A stretch of 64,000 nucleotides of DNA. It comes from an uncultured Pseudomonadota bacterium. GTDB taxonomy: Bacteria; Pseudomonadota; Alphaproteobacteria; Rs-D84. Both the position numbers and the translations under genes were made by a program. This document shows positions 1 to 61,602 of this stretch, piece after piece. Below the pieces are notes generated by a model that worked only from the letters and a program-made list of their open reading frames with translations, had not been told where the DNA came from and did not search any database. The stretch spans positions 159,211 to 223,210 of the forward strand of contig OOHM01000002.1 of the NCBI GenBank assembly GCA_900320405.1. Direction: 5' to 3'. Positions within the stretch are counted from its first letter, which is position 1. Each line of letters starts with the position of its first letter.

Positions 1-1053
1 TCACCTTTAAGGCGATGTTTGTTTCGGCTTCTTTGAACAGGCGTTCGCCAATCATACGCGAAGTTAATTTTTTACCACTTTGTCCCGCCAATGGTGAAGT
101 GTTTACAAAGAAAGTCATTGTAAGGGTTGGTGGGTCAATTGGCATGGCCGGAATTGGTTCGGTGACCTCCGGTGCGCACAGTGTGTCGGCCACCGTTGCC
201 CGTGTAAACCCGGCAACGACGACAATGTCACCCGCAGATGCACTTTCGCGGGAAATTTTTTCAATTCCGCGGTGTTCGATAATTTTTGTAATTTTGGCGT
301 TTTCGATAAATTCGCCCTTCATATTTATTGCTTTGACCGATTGCCCAACACGAACAGTACCCGATTCGATTTTACCGGTAAGTATTCGGCCGACATACGG
401 GTCTGATTCTAATGTGGTGGCCAGCATAGTAAACGGTGCATCAATCATGCAACGCGTACCGTTGCAATCCGGTGCCGGCACATGGTCAACAATCAATTGG
501 AACAGTGGCGTTAAATCTTTGTGTTCGTCACTCAAATTGCGAACCGCCCAACCGTCGCGTCCAACCGCGTACAGGTATGGAAAATCCAGTTGCGCATCGT
601 CCGCACCCAATTTATCAAACAAATCAAATGTTTCGGACAGTACTTCATCCGGGCGGGCATCGGCACGGTCAACTTTATTGATGCAAACAATCGGGCGCAG
701 GCCAAGTTTTAACGCCTTGGACAATACGAATTTTGTTTGGGGCAGGGGGCCTTCGGCACTGTCCACCAATAACACAACACCATCAACCATTGATAAAATA
801 CGTTCAACTTCGCCGCCAAAGTCCGCGTGGCCCGGCGTATCCACAATATTGATTTTATAATCGTGCCACAGAACCGATGTGGGTTTTGCAGAAATTGTGA
901 TTCCGCGTTCGCGTTCAATATCGCCGCTGTCCATAACGCGGTCGTCAACGCGTTCGTTTTCACGGAATGTTCCCGCCTGTTTCAACATATTATCAACCAG
1001 GGTTGTTTTCCCGTGGTCAACGTGTGCGATAATTGCAATGTTTCTTATTTTCA
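1..1053 (-). CDS. typA: GTP-binding protein TypA/BipA (translational GTPase). The N-terminal ~350 aa are in the window; the C-terminus lies beyond the window start.
   Basis: Reverse-complement translation from the ATG at 1053 gives MKIRNIAIIAHVDHGKTTLVD...DTPGHADFGGEVER, the G1-G3 GTPase motifs typical of TypA. The + strand ORF 15-860 is its antisense artefact. Confidence 0.88.
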
Positions 1054-1186
1054 TACACTAAACCCTTTTTTAGCGAAAAATTTTATCACATATTTTCGTA
1101 TTTTCAACAAATTATAGCTGATTTTTTATAAAAAATTGACATTTTGCGCAGGTTTGGTATAAGTGAATCAAGAAAAAGGGCTGTCA

Positions 1187-52434: not shown

Positions 52435-52460
52435 AACCGGCGAGGATTTGCCGGTTTTTT
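52435..52460 (+). terminator. Rho-independent terminator after ruvX
   Basis: aaccggcg-aggattt-gccgg hairpin plus tttttt. Confidence 0.55.
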
Positions 52461-52469
52461 GTTTCGGCT

Positions 52470-52620
52470 GGTCAATTTAATCGTACCTTTTTGTCCAGTA
52501 CTTTTTTCAAAAATTATTTTCAGTAATTTCAATAGGTTATGTTTTGGCATAAGTACTGGTCAAAAAGGTACCTTTAATGCCATAATATATGTGTATAAAA
52601 CAAGCAAGAAAGGAAGGGAT
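52470..52620 (+). repeat. Cassette copy at 52.47 kb (complete). IR arms at 52482-52502 and 52552-52571 (1 mismatch), a 49-nt spacer and a promoter/RBS region up to the ATG at 52621.
   Basis: About 95% identical to 28565-28718 over ~150 bp, in both the IR unit and the downstream cataata...tgtgtataaaacaagca...aggaaggg segment. Confidence 0.75.
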
Positions 52621-53190
52621 ATGAGGATTCCATTTTTAACATTTGGTGCAATTGCATCCGTTTTAACAATCAATTCATCATTTGGGGTATCGTCCACGGT
52701 GACGTCGCGGGGGTATGTTGATGCGGCGGTTGCAACCAAACAGGCGATAATACCGGCCCAGTCGGGTGATTATGTCGTAATGTATCCAAATGACGATAAC
52801 GGCGATGATGATGGCGCGATTGGTATGCGACAAATTATCACCGATGTTGATAATTATAACGATGGCAATGAATTGGTGACGGTTGGTGCGATAAACAATG
52901 CACTGCAAGACAAACAGGATATTATTCCTGCGGGGACCAGTGGTAATTTGGTGACATATACCGGAACGGCGGGTTCGGTTGGTTCGGCATCGGTTTATAA
53001 TGCATCGAATTCATACAGCGGTCAAACCACCGCGTTGGTCCAGGCGCAACATGTGAACGCCGCGGCAATGAATGCGTTTAACGCGCATTTGACATGTAAT
53101 ACATACGATACCAGTGGAACCCAAACGGCGGAACACTGTTTATTGTGGAGTGTGAATAATTTATCAGGCACGTATGTTCCGGGAAATTAA
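52621..53190 (+). CDS. Secreted Gly/Ser/Thr/Asn-rich protein, member of the polymorphic family (signal peptide MRIPFLTFGAIASVLTINSS)
   Basis: N-terminus nearly identical to the 28719 gene for ~25 codons. Motifs STVTSRGYVDAAVATKQAIIPA and a repeated ALQDKQDIIPAGTSGNLVTYTG. A single Cys pair includes HCLLWSV. Confidence 0.7.
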   Translation: MRIPFLTFGAIASVLTINSSFGVSSTVTSRGYVDAAVATKQAIIPAQSGDYVVMYPNDDNGDDDGAIGMRQIITDVDNYNDGNELVTVGAINNALQDKQDIIPAGTSGNLVTYTGTAGSVGSASVYNASNSYSGQTTALVQAQHVNAAAMNAFNAHLTCNTYDTSGTQTAEHCLLWSVNNLSGTYVPGN

Positions 53191-53221: not shown

Positions 53222-54256
53222 ATGAATACAAAATTATTATTACCCATAATTGCAATGACGATAATCCCGGTTGTGTATGCGGACACCGTTACGGTAACCA
53301 GTCAGGATTATGTTGATAATGTTATGAATACAAAACAAAATAAAATTGCGGCCACATCCGGTGACCGGGTTGTGACATATTCGACCACGGCGGGTCAAAC
53401 GGGTTCGCGCGCGATATTGGACGATTTGTCGGGCACGACAACAACGGATATGAACCTGGCCACGGCGATGGCGGCGGGAGATGCCGTATTCAGTAAAAAT
53501 CAACAGGTGTTAAACATTGGCGCGCCAAATGTGTTGACATATTATGGCAATAATATAACATGGGGGGCATTGACGGCGACACCGATATATAATAACACGG
53601 TAAACACATTTTCCAATGGGTTGGTGGATGCGGCGACGTTAAATACGGCAATGACGGTGGCGGCAAATAACGAAATGGTGTGCAGTGAATATGCCCCTGG
53701 TATGCCGGAAACAGATGCGAATTGCATGCTGTGGGAAATAAACACGGCGGCGACGAATCCATTGAACACTACGGCATATTTGCCGGCGAATGTAAATGGG
53801 ACATCGTATTGTTATAAATCGCATAATGGCAATAATAATTCTAGTGGTAAATGTTCAACAACGATGTATAATGCATTTAACAAGGGTGATTGGGGCACGG
53901 TGTTTTCGTATGGCACGGTGACGGGTATAAGTGTATGCAGCGATATAGAACCGTCAATAAAATGGGACTATGATGATGGGGAAAGCCAATGGACCAAATA
54001 CCTGTCGTATCAGGTATCAACAAATCAAAGCGGTGTGCAATCACAATACGATGCATGGGTGTCGGGGGGCCGTTCCGCAACGCCCGTTGGTGGGTATTGT
54101 TATTGTAAATTAACAAATCCATCTGTTTCGGCGGCGCGCTGGGTGTTCAGGATCTCGTACTCCGTTTCGGACTGTGCGAACCTCTGTACGTACTACTGCA
54201 CGAACGCCGTTCGGACCGACGCCGAATTCCGTGGGGCCGTCTTCGGGGCGCAATAG
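53222..54256 (+). CDS. Secreted protein (344 aa), a divergent tandem paralog of the polymorphic family without the cassette
   Basis: Signal peptide MNTKLLLPIIAMTIIPVVYA. Motifs DTVTVTSQDYVDNVMNTKQNKIAATSGDRVVTYS and NCMLWEI. Cys-rich C-terminus. Own RBS aaaggaatg. Confidence 0.65.
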   Translation: MNTKLLLPIIAMTIIPVVYADTVTVTSQDYVDNVMNTKQNKIAATSGDRVVTYSTTAGQTGSRAILDDLSGTTTTDMNLATAMAAGDAVFSKNQQVLNIGAPNVLTYYGNNITWGALTATPIYNNTVNTFSNGLVDAATLNTAMTVAANNEMVCSEYAPGMPETDANCMLWEINTAATNPLNTTAYLPANVNGTSYCYKSHNGNNNSSGKCSTTMYNAFNKGDWGTVFSYGTVTGISVCSDIEPSIKWDYDDGESQWTKYLSYQVSTNQSGVQSQYDAWVSGGRSATPVGGYCYCKLTNPSVSAARWVFRISYSVSDCANLCTYYCTNAVRTDAEFRGAVFGAQ

Positions 54257-57933: not shown

Positions 57934-58048
57934 GTCTTTATCCCTTAAGTTTACAGTATGGAGTATATCATCTTTTACCGATTCGTGCGATTTTATATGA
58001 ATATTTTTATAAAAAAATAAAAAACATCGACAGATGCATTTTTAGGTC

Positions 58049-58077
58049 TTGCACAGATTCGGTCAAATTGTTATAAT
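58049..58077 (+). promoter_or_regulatory. Near-consensus sigma70 promoter: TTGCAC, 17-nt spacer, TATAAT
   Basis: ttgcac at 58049-58054 and tataat at 58072-58077. RBS aggaaagga, then ATG at 58117. Confidence 0.5.
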
Positions 58078-58116
58078 GACATATAAATAAGGGAATTATT
58101 AGGAAAGGAAGTTCTT

Positions 58117-59100
58117 ATGTTTCGCAAGATTTTGATTGCTGCAATGTTTGCAACCGCCGCGGGATACTGCTTTGCGGACGCCGCTTTGCCCCAGGTTGTC
58201 ACATCGGAAGTCTTTTATGACGAAGATAAAGATGTTCGTGAAAATACAAATGTTCAGGAACAGTTTTATGACAATTCTTACCAGCAACAGGAAGTTTACC
58301 AGCCCCAGGTTTATCAACCGGTTATCCCCGTGGATGTTCCGGCGTGGCCATTGGCGGGTTCGGATGCCGATGTGACTGTTTCGTGTGAACAGGGGGTATG
58401 CGCCAAAACCGCACAATCTGATAACATCAAAATTGTTTCCAAAATAGGTTCAGATTTGGTTGTCGAAAATAATTTTAATTTGGGTGCACGCGATGGTTGG
58501 TCGGGTGGTGCAAATATGTTGCACGGTACCCAGATTCCGGTTGGGTTTGATGACGAATGTGCGCGTGGTTCGGAAATGCCGTTGTTGCATCGTGAAATAT
58601 TGGAAGATGATGGCGGAAATGTTTTGGCGTTGTCGCGCAGTGGCCGTCGAAATTGTGCAAAATATGCCGATGGGTATGATGCGTATTTGGCGCGTAATGG
58701 TTTGATTGAACGCACGGCAAATGGCGACATCGTGACTGGTGGTGGTGTTATCGGCCTGAACGGTATGACCAGTTTTGTCGAAGGTGATACAGAAATAACG
58801 GTTGATTTATCTGCGGATGCGGAACCGGCAAATTCTGTCCAGGACCAGGTTCGTTCTTGGGTTGTGGCCAGTGGCCAGACATTGCGTGAAGTTTTGCAGT
58901 CTTGGTGTGATAAAGAAGGTTGGGATTTGGTATGGGCAACATCGCGTGAATATCCGATTCAGGCAAGTGCGGTCTTTAAGGGACGCTTTGTTGATGTTGC
59001 GTCGGCGGTTGTGCGGAATTTTGAACGCGCAATACCGATACCGTATGCCAAGTTCTATAAGGGGAATCGTGTTTTGGTTATATCTACGTCCGAAGAATAA
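58117..59100 (+). CDS. TcpQ/PilL-like protein (secreted; partner of type IVb pilus secretins)
   Basis: Signal peptide MFRKILIAAMFATAAGYCFADA. C-terminal domain WVVASGQTLREVLQSWCDKEGWDLVWATSREYPIQASAVFKGRFVDVASAVVRNF...PYAKFYKGNRVLVIS matches the TcpQ/PilL signature as I recall it. Immediately followed by a secretin gene. Confidence 0.5.
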   Translation: MFRKILIAAMFATAAGYCFADAALPQVVTSEVFYDEDKDVRENTNVQEQFYDNSYQQQEVYQPQVYQPVIPVDVPAWPLAGSDADVTVSCEQGVCAKTAQSDNIKIVSKIGSDLVVENNFNLGARDGWSGGANMLHGTQIPVGFDDECARGSEMPLLHREILEDDGGNVLALSRSGRRNCAKYADGYDAYLARNGLIERTANGDIVTGGGVIGLNGMTSFVEGDTEITVDLSADAEPANSVQDQVRSWVVASGQTLREVLQSWCDKEGWDLVWATSREYPIQASAVFKGRFVDVASAVVRNFERAIPIPYAKFYKGNRVLVISTSEE

Positions 59101-59127
59101 TTTGACAGATTGTAGGAGAAAGAATAG

Positions 59128-60753
59128 ATGTTGAAGCATATGAAATATTTTGTGGCAATGTTGGTGGCGGTTGTTGTGGCGGGGTGCGCAACGCGTGATT
59201 CGGCCAAAGTTGCGGCGTCTGTAGATCAGGATTTTGTTAATGTGTACGACGCGTTCGAGATGGCAAAAAATCCGCGGGCCAAGGTTGCAAGTGGTGATAC
59301 TGTGTCTATGTCCGAAGGCGTTTGGTTGGGCGACAAGTCTACTTTGGTTGAACATAAAAATAATTTGCCAAAACAATATGAAACCGACAGCGGTATAACC
59401 ATATTATTAAATGAACCGGTCACATTACAGGTTTTGGCGAATAACATAAATTCTATTACCCAGATTCCAATCAAAATCGACAGCCAGGTCGCATCAGAAA
59501 AATTAAAGAAAACGATGAATATTGCGTATACCGGCAAATTGTCTGGCTTGCTGTCCCAGGTGGCGACCGATTTAGACTTGCTCTGGTATTATGATAAAAG
59601 TTCAATCGTATTCTATGAAACAGAAACCAAGACATTTACTTTGTATGCATTGGGTACAGATGTTTCATATCAATCGACCGTTCAAACCGATAATGGAAAC
59701 CAGGTTTATTTAGAATCTACATTGAAGGAGTGGGACGAGGTTGAAAGTACGATTTCTTCGATTATTGGTAAATCGGAAAATGCGAATTTCACTGTGTCGC
59801 GCAGTTTGGGAACCATAACCGTTACCGCACCGCCGTCCGTGTTGACGCGTGTGGGCGATTATATTGCGCGTCAAAACAGACGTCTGTCCCAATTGGTCAC
59901 CATTGATGTCAAGGTATTACAAGTTTCAATCGCAAATGATTCTGCGTTTGGGTTGAACTTGGCGGCGGCAATCAATTCTGCATCGGGATTGAATATTGTT
60001 GCCAATCCAAAGAACAATCTTGCGTCAACCGAGGCCAGTTCTATGAATATTGCGGTTTTGTCTAATACTGTATCGGCGTTGACCGGCGCAACCCATATGG
60101 AAAATGGTTCGTCTGTTGCAGGTGCGTATACCCAAGACCAAATCAACAACGGGTCATTGTCTGCAATGGCGGGCAGTACCGCACTTATCGAAGCATTGGC
60201 AAAGCAGGGCAAGGTTTCGTTGGTCACAAATGTTGGTGTGACAACGCGTAACAATCGTGTCGCGCCGGTGAACAACACAAAAAGTACGGGATATATCAAA
60301 CGGTTTGAATCGCGTAACTTTACAACGGTTGAATCCAGTACCGTTGACCAGGATAACCTAGAGACCGGATTTTCAATGCAATTGTTGCCGAACATTTTGG
60401 AGAATGGCAAGATATTGTTGTTGTTCAGAATGTCTGTACGCGAATTGTTAAAGATGTCCAGTCAAACGATTGGCGAAGTCACATTGCAGTTGCCCGAGGT
60501 TGAAGAACGCAGCTTTATGCAGGAGGTTATTATGGAATCGGGTCAAATGTTGGTTGTGTCCGGATTTGAAAAGCAATCAAACAATGACACCAGATATGGA
60601 CTTGGGGACCCAGACTTTATGTTGTTGTCCGGTTCGCGTGAAACGGCATCGCAACGTGATGTGTTGGTTGTTATCCTAACGCCCCAGGTTTTGGTAAGTC
60701 CAATGGATGCAGAACGAAGTATCCAGCAACATTGGGGGGCACCGTTAAATTAA
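59128..60753 (+). CDS. Lipoprotein secretin (PilN/TcpC/BfpB-like, type IVb pilus-type outer-membrane channel)
   Basis: Lipobox VVAGC. N-domain LDLLWYYDKSSIVFYETETKTFTLYAL. Secretin domain beginning IDVKVLQVSIANDSAFGLNL and ending DVLVVILTPQVL. 541 aa, RBS taggagaaag. Confidence 0.8.
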   Translation: MLKHMKYFVAMLVAVVVAGCATRDSAKVAASVDQDFVNVYDAFEMAKNPRAKVASGDTVSMSEGVWLGDKSTLVEHKNNLPKQYETDSGITILLNEPVTLQVLANNINSITQIPIKIDSQVASEKLKKTMNIAYTGKLSGLLSQVATDLDLLWYYDKSSIVFYETETKTFTLYALGTDVSYQSTVQTDNGNQVYLESTLKEWDEVESTISSIIGKSENANFTVSRSLGTITVTAPPSVLTRVGDYIARQNRRLSQLVTIDVKVLQVSIANDSAFGLNLAAAINSASGLNIVANPKNNLASTEASSMNIAVLSNTVSALTGATHMENGSSVAGAYTQDQINNGSLSAMAGSTALIEALAKQGKVSLVTNVGVTTRNNRVAPVNNTKSTGYIKRFESRNFTTVESSTVDQDNLETGFSMQLLPNILENGKILLLFRMSVRELLKMSSQTIGEVTLQLPEVEERSFMQEVIMESGQMLVVSGFEKQSNNDTRYGLGDPDFMLLSGSRETASQRDVLVVILTPQVLVSPMDAERSIQQHWGAPLN

Positions 60754-60762
60754 CAAATTATG

Positions 60763-60788
60763 GGTCACCAAAGGGTGACCCTTTTTTT
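60763..60788 (+). terminator. Rho-independent terminator after the secretin gene
   Basis: gggtcacc-aaa-gggtgaccc perfect hairpin followed by ttttttt. Confidence 0.6.
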
Positions 60789-60806
60789 ATAACCAAGGGA
60801 GAATAT

Positions 60807-61157
60807 ATGGCCATATTTAGAAAAAAGAAAGAGGAATCTAAACCACCGTCAGGTAAATTAAATCTTAATAAACAATATGAAGAAAATTTTAAGCGTGTAT
60901 CTCATATTATATCAAAGGCCCATCATTTTAATTTTGTCGATGATGGAACAACCATAGTTTTTGCGGGTTCATACAGGTTTACCGTACATCAGGGGCGCAG
61001 ATGTGTTATCGGCCCAAATGATGTCCCGATTGATATGTCGCCCCATCAAATAAATAAAATATATGACCTTATAATGGAACGACATAATTTCTTGATGCAT
61101 CATCTAAGATCGAAAATTGTGGCGGAACATTTGCGAACCCGCCGTCACAAGTTTTGA
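60807..61157 (+). CDS. Hypothetical basic protein (116 aa)
   Basis: RBS aagggagaat, then ATG at 60807 (MAIFRKKKEES...). No TM segment and no recognisable domain. Confidence 0.45.
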   Translation: MAIFRKKKEESKPPSGKLNLNKQYEENFKRVSHIISKAHHFNFVDDGTTIVFAGSYRFTVHQGRRCVIGPNDVPIDMSPHQINKIYDLIMERHNFLMHHLRSKIVAEHLRTRRHKF

Positions 61158-61229
61158 CGAAAAATTTAGTTGTGTTCTATGTTGTTTTGATGCTATATTC
61201 AATATTGTGATATTTCAAAGGAGTTTTTT

Positions 61230-61538
61230 GTGGGTGCAAACATACAGGTTAGTATTGAAACAACAGATTCCATTGGACAATCGTACGGTGGTTTTAATGC
61301 GAATGTTGAACGCGGATTTTTTCAAACATTGGCGGAGTTAATAAAAATAGATAATATTGTTTGGGATCCGGTTGGTGCATTTTTTTCTTTGTCGTGCGGT
61401 TACAGCGTTCATAAATATCGGGCCGGTGGTGGCGCGGTTTATGATCCATATGGGGAAGAAATATTTATGACACAAAATCATATTAATAAATTGTTTGCAA
61501 TTGCGTCTGCCAAGAAAAATGTTGGTCGTGGTCGATAA
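61230..61538 (+). CDS. Hypothetical protein (102 aa, GTG start)
   Basis: Open frame with aaaggag RBS upstream of GTG at 61230. No recognisable domain. Confidence 0.4.
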   Translation: MGANIQVSIETTDSIGQSYGGFNANVERGFFQTLAELIKIDNIVWDPVGAFFSLSCGYSVHKYRAGGGAVYDPYGEEIFMTQNHINKLFAIASAKKNVGRGR

Positions 61539-61562
61539 TTTTTGATTTTTCATACAACAAAA

Positions 61563-61591
61563 GGCGTGCAAAAAATGCACGCCAATTTTTT
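61563..61591. terminator. Bidirectional rho-independent terminator (rpsT on minus, hypotheticals on plus)
   Basis: ggcgtgca-aaaaa-tgcacgcc hairpin flanked by an A-run and a T-run. Confidence 0.55.
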
Positions 61592-61602
61592 AATTGGTCA
61601 CA

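What the first reader, a model, noticed from the sequence alone, without database searches (positions are those of the whole stretch)
58049..61538. Orphan type IVb-pilus-like outer-membrane module: a TcpQ/PilL-like protein plus a lipoprotein secretin behind a near-consensus promoter, with no pilin or ATPase nearby
58117-59100 encodes a signal-peptide protein. Its C-terminal domain has the pattern W..SGQTLREVLQSWCDKEGWDLVW...F.G.F.....PIPYAKFYKGNRVLVIS, which I associate with the TcpQ/PilL family (partners of TcpC/PilN-type secretins).

59128-60753 is a 541-aa lipoprotein secretin: lipobox VVAGC, N-domain, and a secretin domain ending VLVVILTPQVL. A perfect terminator follows it.

The pair sits behind TTGCAC-17-TATAAT at 58049-58077. 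Two small hypotheticals follow (60807-61157 and 61230-61538), then rpsT.

No prepilin, prepilin peptidase, PilB/T-type ATPase or inner-membrane platform gene is in the window. The secretin therefore either serves a pilus or secretion machine encoded elsewhere, or is a remnant. It could also be the exit route for the polymorphic secreted proteins of this region, which is speculation.
Basis: partly seen in the sequence, partly recalled or inferred. Interest (0 to 1): 0.65.

Follow-up and report, generated by a model that had tools for sequence, protein, structure and literature searches.

The report
Outer-membrane half of a split pilus operon
The two genes encode the outer-membrane pore and its helper protein of a type IVb pilus in a tiny-genome gut bacterium (Candidatus Enterousia); they are strongly conserved, and the motor and inner-membrane genes very probably sit at a second place in the same genome, so this is a relocated part of a known machine, not an orphan or a relic.

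Summary
58117-59100 encodes a signal-peptide protein with a C-terminal TcpQ domain. 59128-60753 encodes a lipoprotein secretin of the type IVb class. A promoter and a terminator bracket the pair, and no other pilus gene lies in the window or within 10 kb of the pair in 80 related species. Both proteins match the two chains of one solved complex, BfpB-BfpG (PDB 9u5s).

The source is Candidatus Enterousia (order Rs-D84), a gut and rumen alphaproteobacterium with a genome under 1 Mb. Its relatives carry the same pair at the head of a six-gene row in the R64 pilL-N-O-P-Q-R order: TcpQ, secretin, PilO, PilP, ATPase, platform. Rumen contigs whose composition matches Enterousia carry exactly the missing four genes (PilO-PilP-ATPase-platform) without a secretin. 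Their nearest relative, L180, is also the nearest relative of the window pair. I could not place both halves on one contig, so the link is inferred.

The secretin is intact in 80 of 80 species, with dN/dS 0.07, lower than SufB or ribosomal protein S20. That excludes a remnant. The two small downstream ORFs lie in a variable insertion spot and are not part of the module. Pilin and prepilin peptidase were not located.

Verdict: an ordinary member of a known family in an unusual split arrangement. Interest is moderate to low.

The parts
58048..58077 (+). Promoter block: -35 TTGCAC, 17-nt spacer with TG before the -10, and -10 TATAAT. The spacer is conserved as well, so an operator may overlap it.
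   Evidence: Consensus scan. The same hexamers occur in 74 of 78 Enterousia species, 36-44 nt before the start codon. The whole block is at least 95% conserved while flanking intergenic DNA is variable.
58102..58111 (+). Ribosome-binding site GGAAAGGAAG, ending 5 nt before the ATG at 58117.
   Evidence: Read from the sequence. Its core is at least 95% conserved in 78 species.
58117..59100 (+). Gene for the secretin partner, 327 aa. It has a Sec signal peptide (no lipobox), a variable N-terminal region (aa 23-245) and a C-terminal TcpQ/BfpG-type domain (aa 246-323).
   Evidence: Pfam PF10671 TcpQ 66 bits. It matches the 114-aa partner chain 9u5s_R (deposited name 'Lipoprotein'; BfpG according to PMC12531336) at E=1.3e-13. 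It is present in 77 of 80 species. dN/dS is 0.040 for the TcpQ domain and 0.21 for the N region.
59128..60753 (+). Gene for a lipoprotein-type type IVb secretin, 541 aa. It has lipobox VVAGC (Cys20), an N-terminal stretch aligning to the BfpB region before N0, N0- and N3-like domains, and a secretin domain, with no C-terminal S domain.
   Evidence: PF00263 50 bits. TIGR02520 243 bits. A profile of it and its relatives aligns to BfpB residues 14-96 and 144-528 at E=8e-82. The AlphaFold model's best PDB match is 9u5s_A at E=7.7e-30, against 3.8e-17 for the next secretin class. It is intact in 80 of 80 species with dN/dS 0.071.
60762..60788 (+). Intrinsic terminator closing the two-gene unit: an 8-bp stem, a 4-nt loop and a run of seven T.
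   Evidence: Scan and sequence. A hairpin plus T-run is found after the secretin in 57 of 79 sequences, with different stem sequences in different species.

Best explanation
The two genes make the outer-membrane part of a chromosomal type IVb pilus machine of the R64 thin-pilus / bundle-forming-pilus kind.

The 541-aa protein is a lipoprotein secretin. It is anchored in the outer membrane by its acylated N-terminal cysteine and forms the multimeric pore through which the pilus passes. The 327-aa protein carries a TcpQ/BfpG-type domain. In the solved BfpB-BfpG complex this domain binds the N-terminal linker of the secretin around the N3 ring and is needed for secretin assembly. The pair is transcribed as its own unit from a conserved sigma-70-type promoter and ends at an intrinsic terminator.

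In the ancestor of this group of reduced gut alphaproteobacteria the pair headed a six-gene row: TcpQ, secretin, PilO, PilP, ATPase, platform. In the Enterousia + L091 lineage a rearrangement separated the pair, which now lies between the suf operon and rpsT. The other four genes stayed next to a GyrB/ParE-like gene. The machine therefore still has its motor and inner-membrane platform, encoded elsewhere in the genome.

What is shown: the family membership of both proteins, their transcription signals, their conservation, the intact operons in relatives, and the existence of secretin-less PilO-PilP-ATPase-platform loci.

What is inferred: that those loci lie in the same genomes as the pair, that a pilus is actually made (pilin and prepilin peptidase were not located), and what the pilus is for. 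Adhesion to a partner cell and/or DNA uptake are guesses, based on the partner-dependent lifestyle and on the neighbouring ComEC and DprA genes.
For: Family membership:
- TcpQ 66 bits and Secretin 50 bits; TIGR02520 is the best secretin model.
- Both proteins hit the two chains of PDB 9u5s, at E=1.7e-36 and E=1.3e-13.
- A profile aligns to almost full-length BfpB at E=8e-82.
- The fold search puts 9u5s first by 13 orders of magnitude.

Ancestral operon. TcpQ-secretin-PilO-PilP-T2SSE-T2SSF is intact in four relatives:
- L090
- L093
- L097, which also has two PilS/Bundlin pilins
- L180

The second half:
- 8 of the 80 loci from the metagenome scan carry PilO-PilP-ATPase-T2SSF with no TcpQ or secretin.
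- Further copies show the context LpxK-LpxC-lipoprotein-PilO-PilP-ATPase-T2SSF-...-ParE-like-...-AspRS.
- L180 shares this downstream order.
- PilP passes the TIGR03021 cutoff and PilO passes the PF06864 cutoff.

Attribution to Enterousia:
- L180 is the nearest relative of the window pair (secretin 65-66%, TcpQ 43%). It is also the nearest relative of the split-locus proteins (ATPase 72%, T2SSF 53%, PilO 35%, PilP 38%).
- The split-locus ATPases are 88-97% identical to each other and 71-73% to L180. Enterousia secretins are 83-94% identical to the window's.
- Tetranucleotide correlation with an Enterousia centroid is 0.915-0.961 for the split loci. Enterousia loci themselves have a median of 0.960. 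All 58 other ATPase loci score 0.857 or less.
- The samples come from the same rumen studies as the window's own proteins.

Functionality:
- The secretin is intact in 80 of 80 species, median 85.8% identity, against 75.5% for SufB.
- dN/dS is 0.071 overall and 0.074 for the periplasmic N-terminal part, which would be free to drift if it had no partners.
- The promoter is conserved.

Chromosomal and vertically inherited: the housekeeping synteny is shared with the sister lineage L091, whose secretin is 76-78% identical.
Against: - No contig or named assembly was shown to carry both halves. Contig-length matching through cluster members found no overlap. The one NCBI assembly seen, GCA_054273035.1, is not among my named Enterousia records.
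- Tetranucleotide composition cannot separate Enterousia from its sister lineage L091 (0.944).
- No pilin or prepilin peptidase was found near either half, so a complete pilus is not demonstrated.
- The published survey of Rs-D84/Enterousia genomes does not mention type IV pili (PMC12306168).
- The secretin scores below the TIGR02520 equivalog cutoff.
- The function of the pilus is not addressed by any of these data.
Confidence: 0.8

Rival explanations
1. A truly orphan secretin. Enterousia has lost the ATPase, platform and alignment proteins, and the conserved pore plus partner now does something else on its own. Examples would be passive export or uptake of macromolecules, or export of the local secreted proteins. 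On this view the secretin-less PilO-PilP-ATPase-platform loci belong to another rumen organism.
For: No physical link between the two halves was obtained. No pilus genes lie within 10 kb of the pair in 80 species. The published genome survey reports no pili for Enterousia.
Against: The split loci have Enterousia-like composition (0.915-0.961) and the same nearest relative as the pair. They lack exactly the two genes the window has, so their owner would need a secretin encoded elsewhere anyway. The periplasmic N-terminal domains of the secretin, which in secretins face the inner-membrane assembly (general knowledge of the family), are as constrained as housekeeping genes (dN/dS 0.074). I know of no secretin that works without an inner-membrane assembly and ATPase (own knowledge).
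Confidence: 0.1
2. A decaying remnant of a lost pilus operon, with no present function.
For: The pair sits isolated among housekeeping genes in a genome under strong reduction.
Against: The secretin is intact and full-length in 80 of 80 species and TcpQ in 77 of 80. dN/dS is 0.071 and 0.150, with the secretin lower than SufB (0.097) and S20 (0.101). The promoter, ribosome-binding site and terminator are conserved. Genomes under 1 Mb do not keep 2.6 kb of useless DNA across a whole genus (inference).
Confidence: 0.01
3. Part of a mobile element: a conjugative plasmid or integrative element carrying a thin-pilus (PilL/PilN) module, or a filamentous-phage secretin.
For: PilL/PilN-type genes are best known from IncI plasmids and integrative conjugative elements (own knowledge). 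T4SS genes lie beside the operon in some relatives.
Against: The position between the suf operon and rpsT/plsY/dprA/dnaA is the same in 80 species and in the sister lineage. GC and tetranucleotide composition equal the rest of the window. There are no integrase, relaxase, replication or phage genes at the locus. Phage pIV is a distant structural match only (rank 35).
Confidence: 0.02
4. The outer-membrane pore of a type II secretion system that exports the signal-peptide protein family encoded in this region.
For: Sources label some homologues GspD, and the ATPase scores best against GspE at NCBIfam, far below the cutoff. The window encodes a family of signal-peptide proteins.
Against: The secretin matches the type IVb class far better than T2SS GspD: E=8e-82 against 1e-10, and 243 bits for TIGR02520 with no GspD model listed. 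It is a lipoprotein with no S domain and has a TcpQ partner, which are type IVb features. The neighbours in relatives are PilO and PilP of the R64 type plus PilS/Bundlin pilins. No GspC, GspL, GspM or pseudopilin families are seen.
Confidence: 0.05

Closest known systems
BfpB-BfpG secretin complex of the EPEC bundle-forming pilus (PDB 9u5s; PMC12531336)
   Same: It is a lipoprotein secretin with an N-terminal linker before N0, N0 and N3 domains, a secretin domain and no S domain. Its partner is a TcpQ-family protein encoded next to it. Both window proteins hit the two chains of this entry.
   Different: Only about 22% identity in the structural alignment. The partner here is 327 aa with a 220-aa N-terminal region absent from the 114-aa chain. 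The genes are chromosomal in an alphaproteobacterium and separated from the rest of the machine, whereas as far as I know bfp is one plasmid operon. The 17:17 stoichiometry is not testable here.
R64 (IncI1) thin-pilus genes pilL-pilN-pilO-pilP-pilQ-pilR (TIGR02520 PilN, TIGR03021 PilP, PF06864 PilO)
   Same: Relatives keep the same order: TcpQ-domain protein, secretin, PilO, PilP, ATPase, platform. TIGR02520 is the best secretin model. PilP passes the TIGR03021 cutoff.
   Different: The secretin is below the equivalog cutoff (243 against 287.65). The partner has no lipobox, whereas R64 PilL is a lipoprotein (own knowledge). There is no plasmid context. No pilM, pilT, pilU or pilV genes were seen. 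The operon is split in Enterousia.
TcpC-TcpQ of the Vibrio cholerae toxin-co-regulated pilus
   Same: The Pfam family is named after TcpQ. It is a periplasmic partner required for a lipoprotein secretin (PMC12531336 and own knowledge).
   Different: Neither was detected directly in the PDB searches. The tcp genes form one island operon.
Type IVa pilus systems with scattered genes (for example PilQ apart from PilB/PilC in Pseudomonas or Neisseria)
   Same: The secretin is encoded at a different locus from the ATPase and platform, so a split layout is normal for working pili (own knowledge).
   Different: Different secretin class: PilQ is a distant match (E 1e-13 to 1e-9). PilQ has AMIN domains and the PilMNOP alignment complex, and no TcpQ partner.

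Membership tests
Type IVb pilus secretin (PilN/BfpB/TcpC class) | C-terminal secretin domain (PF00263) | tested here: met
   50 bits against a cutoff of 27.5, aa 356-522, full model length.
Type IVb pilus secretin (PilN/BfpB/TcpC class) | Lipoprotein: signal peptide with a lipobox cysteine upstream of N0 | tested here: met
   VVAGC with Cys20. Cys20 is invariant in 36 homologues. Actual acylation cannot be tested with these tools.
Type IVb pilus secretin (PilN/BfpB/TcpC class) | N-terminal linker (LG domain with partner-binding region), N0 and N3 domains; no C-terminal S domain | tested here: met
   The profile aligns to BfpB residues 14-96 and 144-528 of 535. 9u5s_A is the top fold match at E=7.7e-30 over 523 columns. 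The protein ends 19 residues after the secretin domain. The predicted partner-binding stretch (aa 48-75) has low pLDDT, so its fold is not confirmed.
Type IVb pilus secretin (PilN/BfpB/TcpC class) | Equivalog-level match to R64 PilN (TIGR02520 curated cutoff) | tested here: not met
   243.1 bits against a cutoff of 287.65. It is still the best-scoring secretin model by a wide margin, so this is the same class but not an R64 PilN equivalog.
TcpQ/BfpG/PilL secretin partner (PF10671) | TcpQ domain above the curated cutoff, encoded directly upstream of the secretin | tested here: met
   66 bits against a cutoff of 27. It matches the partner chain 9u5s_R at E=1.3e-13. The gene ends 27 nt before the secretin start.
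TcpQ/BfpG/PilL secretin partner (PF10671) | Binds the secretin's N-terminal linker and is required for secretin assembly | not testable with these tools
   Known for BfpG (PMC12531336). The single-sequence model of the window protein was unusable (pLDDT 32).
Complete type IVb pilus system | Assembly ATPase (T2SSE), platform (T2SSF), PilO and PilP in the same genome | tested here: inconclusive
   They are absent from the window and from 10 kb around the pair in 80 species. They are present as a secretin-less four-gene locus on rumen contigs attributed to Enterousia by phylogenetic congruence and composition. No contig-level link was obtained.
Complete type IVb pilus system | Type IVb prepilin (PilS/Bundlin type) and prepilin peptidase | tested here: inconclusive
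   A motif scan recovers the L097 pilin as a positive control but finds nothing credible in the window or in the L157, L182, L180, L093 and L090 loci. No Peptidase_A24 family appears in any annotated locus. The rest of the Enterousia genome could not be read.
Type II secretion system secretin (GspD) | GspD-type N domains, a C-terminal S domain with pilotin, and neighbouring gsp genes | tested here: not met
   T2SS secretins are weak matches (E=1e-10 against 8e-82 for BfpB). No GspD model is listed at NCBIfam. There is no S domain and there are no gsp neighbours.
Plasmid or ICE thin-pilus module (mobile PilL/PilN) | Location on a mobile element, with variable presence | tested here: not met
   The core-genome position is fixed in 80 species and in the sister lineage. 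Composition is native.

The most novel reading that the evidence does not exclude
The most novel reading not excluded is this. In these obligately partner-dependent bacteria with genomes under 1 Mb, the type IVb pilus is the central organ of the symbiotic or parasitic lifestyle. It would work together with the neighbouring P-type type IV secretion genes (VirB4, VirD4, TrbC beside the operon in relatives) and the DNA-uptake genes (ComEC beside it in L090, DprA near the pair). Its roles would be to attach to a host cell and to import DNA as a nucleotide source, much as proposed for Patescibacteria. That would explain why the secretin is more conserved than ribosomal and Fe-S assembly proteins.
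Probability: 0.25. Interest if true: 0.6.

Novelty: new member of a known kind. Interest (0 to 1): 0.33.

Why it matters
Enterousia and its order Rs-D84 are widespread in ruminant and human guts. Their genomes are below 1 Mb, they cannot make amino acids, nucleotides or lipids, and they are thought to depend on a partner. How they contact that partner is unknown, and the published genome survey lists no pili for them (PMC12306168).

This work shows that a BFP/R64-like type IVb pilus secretin complex is a core, very strongly conserved feature of the genus, and that the rest of the machine most likely exists at a second locus. That gives a concrete candidate for the attachment or uptake apparatus.

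It also documents step-wise break-up of a normally compact type IVb operon during genome reduction. The row is intact in L180, L093, L090 and L097. It is split in Enterousia and L091. It is rearranged in a different way in L092.

For pilus biology the proteins are ordinary members of a known class.

Tried and rejected
1. First genome-collection scan. 

2. ATPase search. I looked in the top 120 hits for a protein on the window's 915,787-bp scaffold and found none. The list was filled by two other lineages.

3. Source names of ATPase clusters. None names Enterousia.

4. Contig-length matching between secretin-bearing and ATPase-bearing contigs found no match.

5. The NCBI assembly of one split locus (GCA_054273035.1, JAZOJW01) is not among my named records.

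6. I tested whether L093 or L097 could be second, complete operons of Enterousia itself. This was rejected. Their secretins are 33-41% identical to the window and L091 secretins, their tetranucleotide correlations are 0.70-0.75, and the only shared housekeeping stretch is 72.6% identical in DNA.

7. My impression that the two small ORFs are paralogues was rejected (BLASTP E=5.8).

The model was unusable (pLDDT 32), so the 220-aa N-terminal region remains uncharacterised.

9. Literature searches for pili in Enterousia or Rs-D84 found nothing specific.

Full report
**Observation**

The window holds two co-directional ORFs, 58117-59100 (327 aa) and 59128-60753 (541 aa).
- The first has a Sec-type signal peptide and a C-terminal Pfam TcpQ domain (66 bits, cutoff 27, aa 246-323).
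- The second has a lipobox (VVAGC, Cys20) and a full-length Pfam Secretin domain (50 bits, cutoff 27.5).
- Its best NCBIfam model is TIGR02520, the PilN-family type IVB secretin, at 243 bits. That is below the equivalog cutoff of 287.65. MshL (95 bits) and SctC (26 bits) are far behind.
- TTGCAC-17-TATAAT with a TG before the -10 lies at 58049-58077.
- A perfect 8-bp hairpin followed by seven T lies at 60762-60788.

So the description is accurate. A single promoter-like match is not above chance in this region (12 found, 12 expected). Conservation settles it:
- The same hexamers occur in 74 of 78 related species, 36-44 nt before the start codon.
- The whole 30-nt block including the spacer is at least 95% conserved, while the surrounding intergenic DNA is not.
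- A hairpin plus T-run follows the secretin in 57 of 79 sequences, with different stem sequences in different species.

**Source organism**

The exact secretin sequence is found on 22 contigs, the longest a 915,787-bp rumen scaffold. A scan of species-representative genomes returned 80 loci with 83-94% identical secretins. Many are labelled Candidatus Enterousia, and one is a circular 958,618-bp MAG. Enterousia (order Rs-D84, Alphaproteobacteria) is described as a gut lineage with genomes under 1 Mb. It lacks amino-acid, nucleotide and lipid biosynthesis and is probably partner-dependent. The paper reports type IV pili only for another lineage (PMC12306168).

The pair lies among housekeeping genes: gatCAB, ruvX, an AI-2E transporter, sufCB, then the pair, then rpsT, plsY, dprA, dnaA and gyrB. 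No T2SSE, T2SSF, pilin or peptidase family is on record anywhere in the window or 10 kb beyond its right end.

**What the proteins are**

Both proteins hit the two chains of one PDB entry, 9u5s.
- The secretin hits BfpB at E=1.7e-36.
- The TcpQ-like protein hits the 114-aa partner chain at E=1.3e-13.
- A profile of the secretin and its relatives aligns to BfpB residues 14-96 and 144-528 at E=8e-82. The best T2SS secretin reaches only 1e-10.
- An AlphaFold model built on 36 homologues has confident N0-like, N3-like and secretin domains.
- Its best PDB match is 9u5s_A at E=7.7e-30 over 523 columns. T3SS, T2SS, T4aP and phage secretins follow at E=4e-17 or weaker.

According to the paper on that structure, type IVb secretins have these features:
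- They have an extra N3 barrel.
- They lack the S domain.
- They need a TcpQ/BfpG-type partner that binds the C-terminal part of the LG domain.

The window pair fits this description at sequence level.

**Relatives and the ancestral operon**

An exhaustive representative search showed a gap between the Enterousia clade (84% and above) and relatives at 42-43% and below. Their genomic context is decisive.
- L090: TcpQ, secretin, PilO, a 340-aa gene, T2SSE ATPase and T2SSF platform, with ComEC two genes later and VirD4/TrbC just upstream.
- L093: the same six genes.
- L097: the same six genes plus two PilS/Bundlin pilins and a short second ATPase.
- L180: the same six genes.
- L092: only a T2SSF gene, inverted, next to the pair.
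- L091: secretin 76-78% identical to the window's, with exactly the window's synteny but without the two small ORFs.

The order TcpQ-domain protein, secretin, PilO, PilP, ATPase, platform is that of the R64 pilL-N-O-P-Q-R genes (own knowledge). It is supported here by PF06864 PilO and TIGR03021 PilP hits above their cutoffs. The window pair is therefore the first third of an ancestral type IVb pilus operon.

**Where the rest is**

The L090 ATPase found two large groups of relatives, both with their own adjacent secretins, and no Enterousia-sized third group. A metagenome scan with an ATPase alignment reached deeper. I annotated the 80 loci by tblastn. Eight rumen loci (L148, L153, L154, L157, L158, L159, L165, L173) carry PilO-PilP-ATPase-T2SSF with no TcpQ or secretin, even where 8 kb of upstream sequence is available. 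More copies (L182-L187) show this context:
- upstream: VirB4 about 9 kb away, then RmlACD, LpxK, LpxC and a 151-aa lipoprotein;
- the four genes PilO, PilP, ATPase and T2SSF;
- downstream: two small genes on the opposite strand, a 799-aa GyrB/ParE-like gene, and later AspRS.

L180 has T2SSF, two HTH genes, an 802-aa GyrB/ParE-like gene and AspRS. So the four genes kept the ancestral downstream neighbourhood, while the pair is now elsewhere.

**Attribution of the second locus to Enterousia**

This rests on four independent but indirect lines.
1. Complementarity. These loci lack exactly what the window has, and have exactly what it lacks.
2. Congruent relationships. L180 is the nearest relative of the window's secretin (65-66%) and TcpQ (43%). 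It is also the nearest relative of the split-locus ATPase (72%), T2SSF (53%), PilO (35%) and PilP (38%). All other lineages are clearly further away. The split-locus ATPases are 88-97% identical to each other and 71-73% to L180, a tight genus-like group comparable to the Enterousia secretins.
3. Composition. Tetranucleotide correlation with an Enterousia centroid is 0.915-0.961 for the split loci, and 0.95 using flanks only. Enterousia loci left out one at a time have a median of 0.960. L091 scores 0.944 and L180 0.917. The 58 other ATPase loci score 0.857 or less, with a median of 0.72.
4. Samples. The loci come from the same rumen studies that hold the window's own proteins.

I could not obtain a contig or named assembly that carries both halves. 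I therefore rate the attribution likely, not shown.

**Selection**

Across the 80 species:
- The secretin is full-length in all of them, with median 85.8% amino-acid identity. In the same loci SufB is at 75.5%, S20 at 77.9%, SufC at 72.2% and PlsY at 63.1%.
- Median pairwise dN/dS is 0.071 for the secretin: 0.039 for the secretin domain and 0.074 for aa 21-175.
- For TcpQ it is 0.150 overall: 0.040 for the TcpQ domain and 0.21 for the N region.
- For comparison, SufB is 0.097 and S20 is 0.101.

This excludes a remnant. Constraint on the periplasmic N-terminal part fits continued contact with inner-membrane partners.

**What does not belong**

The two small ORFs (60807-61157 and 61230-61538) lie after the terminator.
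- They have 0 and 4 full-length homologues among 80 species.
- They are absent in L091.
- They are not similar to each other.
- They occupy a gap whose length ranges from 79 to 4,616 nt among species.

**Gaps**

No pilin or prepilin peptidase was found near either half. A motif scan that recovers the L097 pilin as a control finds nothing credible in the window or in the L157, L182, L180, L093 and L090 loci. The rest of the Enterousia genome could not be read with the tools and caps available. The function of the pilus is not addressed by any data here. Adhesion to a partner and DNA uptake are suggested only by the lifestyle, by ComEC next to the operon in L090 and by DprA four genes after the pair. 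The 220-aa N-terminal region of the TcpQ-like protein has no family hit and no usable model.

**Verdict**

The proteins are ordinary members of the type IVb secretin and TcpQ families. The points of interest are three:
- the split layout;
- the step-wise break-up of the operon in reduced genomes;
- the unusually strong conservation of the secretin in a partner-dependent bacterium for which no surface apparatus had been reported.

Noticed in passing
window 60789-61602 (between the terminator and rpsT): The secretin-to-rpsT gap is a variable insertion spot, 79 to 4,616 nt long in 64 Enterousia species. In the window it holds two species-specific ORFs (60807-61157 and 61230-61538) with no family hits. 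They have 0 and 4 full-length homologues in 80 species and are not similar to each other.
   Followed up: partly
window 58048-58077: Not only the two promoter hexamers but also the 17-nt spacer (AGATTCGGTCAAATTGT) is at least 95% conserved across 78 species, while nearby intergenic DNA varies. A regulator binding site may overlap the promoter.
   Followed up: no
L090 6612-9215; L097 1613-2786; L182 1-1202: P-type type IV secretion genes sit beside the type IVb pilus genes in several relatives. VirD4 and TrbC lie directly upstream of TcpQ in L090. Two TrbC genes lie upstream in L097. VirB4 lies about 9 kb upstream of pilO in the split locus L182. This recalls the pairing of thin pilus and conjugation system on IncI plasmids.
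   Followed up: no
L090 17496-19133; L001 14402-15418 (about 4 kb right of the window end): DNA-uptake genes lie near the pilus genes. ComEC is two genes after the platform gene in L090. DprA is four genes after the pair in Enterousia and L091. This is suggestive of a link to DNA uptake but weak, since DprA is widespread.
   Followed up: no
L182 7512-7967 (also L158 968-1360, L157 7366-7848): A 130-160-aa predicted lipoprotein with no family hit lies directly upstream of pilO in all split loci. In L180 that position is occupied by TcpQ and the secretin.
   Followed up: partly
L092 7402-11554: A different lineage shows an independent break-up of the operon. The T2SSF gene is inverted upstream of TcpQ-secretin, and PilO, PilP and the ATPase are gone from the locus. 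The downstream HU and accD/accA genes match the neighbourhood of the intact operon in L093.
   Followed up: no
window 28563-29228, 52459-53190, 53222-54256: These form a small family of signal-peptide proteins sharing an N-terminal motif (…TVTSRxYVD…). The first two are 60% identical over about 150 aa. The third carries a cysteine-rich C-terminus. None has a family hit in the precomputed annotation.
   Followed up: partly
window 59128-60753 and its orthologues in L010-L089: The secretin is more conserved across the genus (85.8% median identity, dN/dS 0.071) than SufB, SufC, ribosomal protein S20 or PlsY in the same loci. That is unusual for an outer-membrane protein.
   Followed up: yes
window 58117-58851 (aa 1-245 of the TcpQ-like protein): The partner protein is about 100 aa longer than in lineages with intact operons (327 aa against 223-247, with 305 in L180). 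The extra N-terminal region has four cysteines, no family hit and a relaxed but still low dN/dS of 0.21.
   Followed up: partly
window about 471-1072, minus strand: The left end of the window carries the start of a translational GTPase gene, 72.6% identical in DNA to the BipA/TypA-like gene of L093. It runs off the window and so is missing from the ORF list.
   Followed up: no
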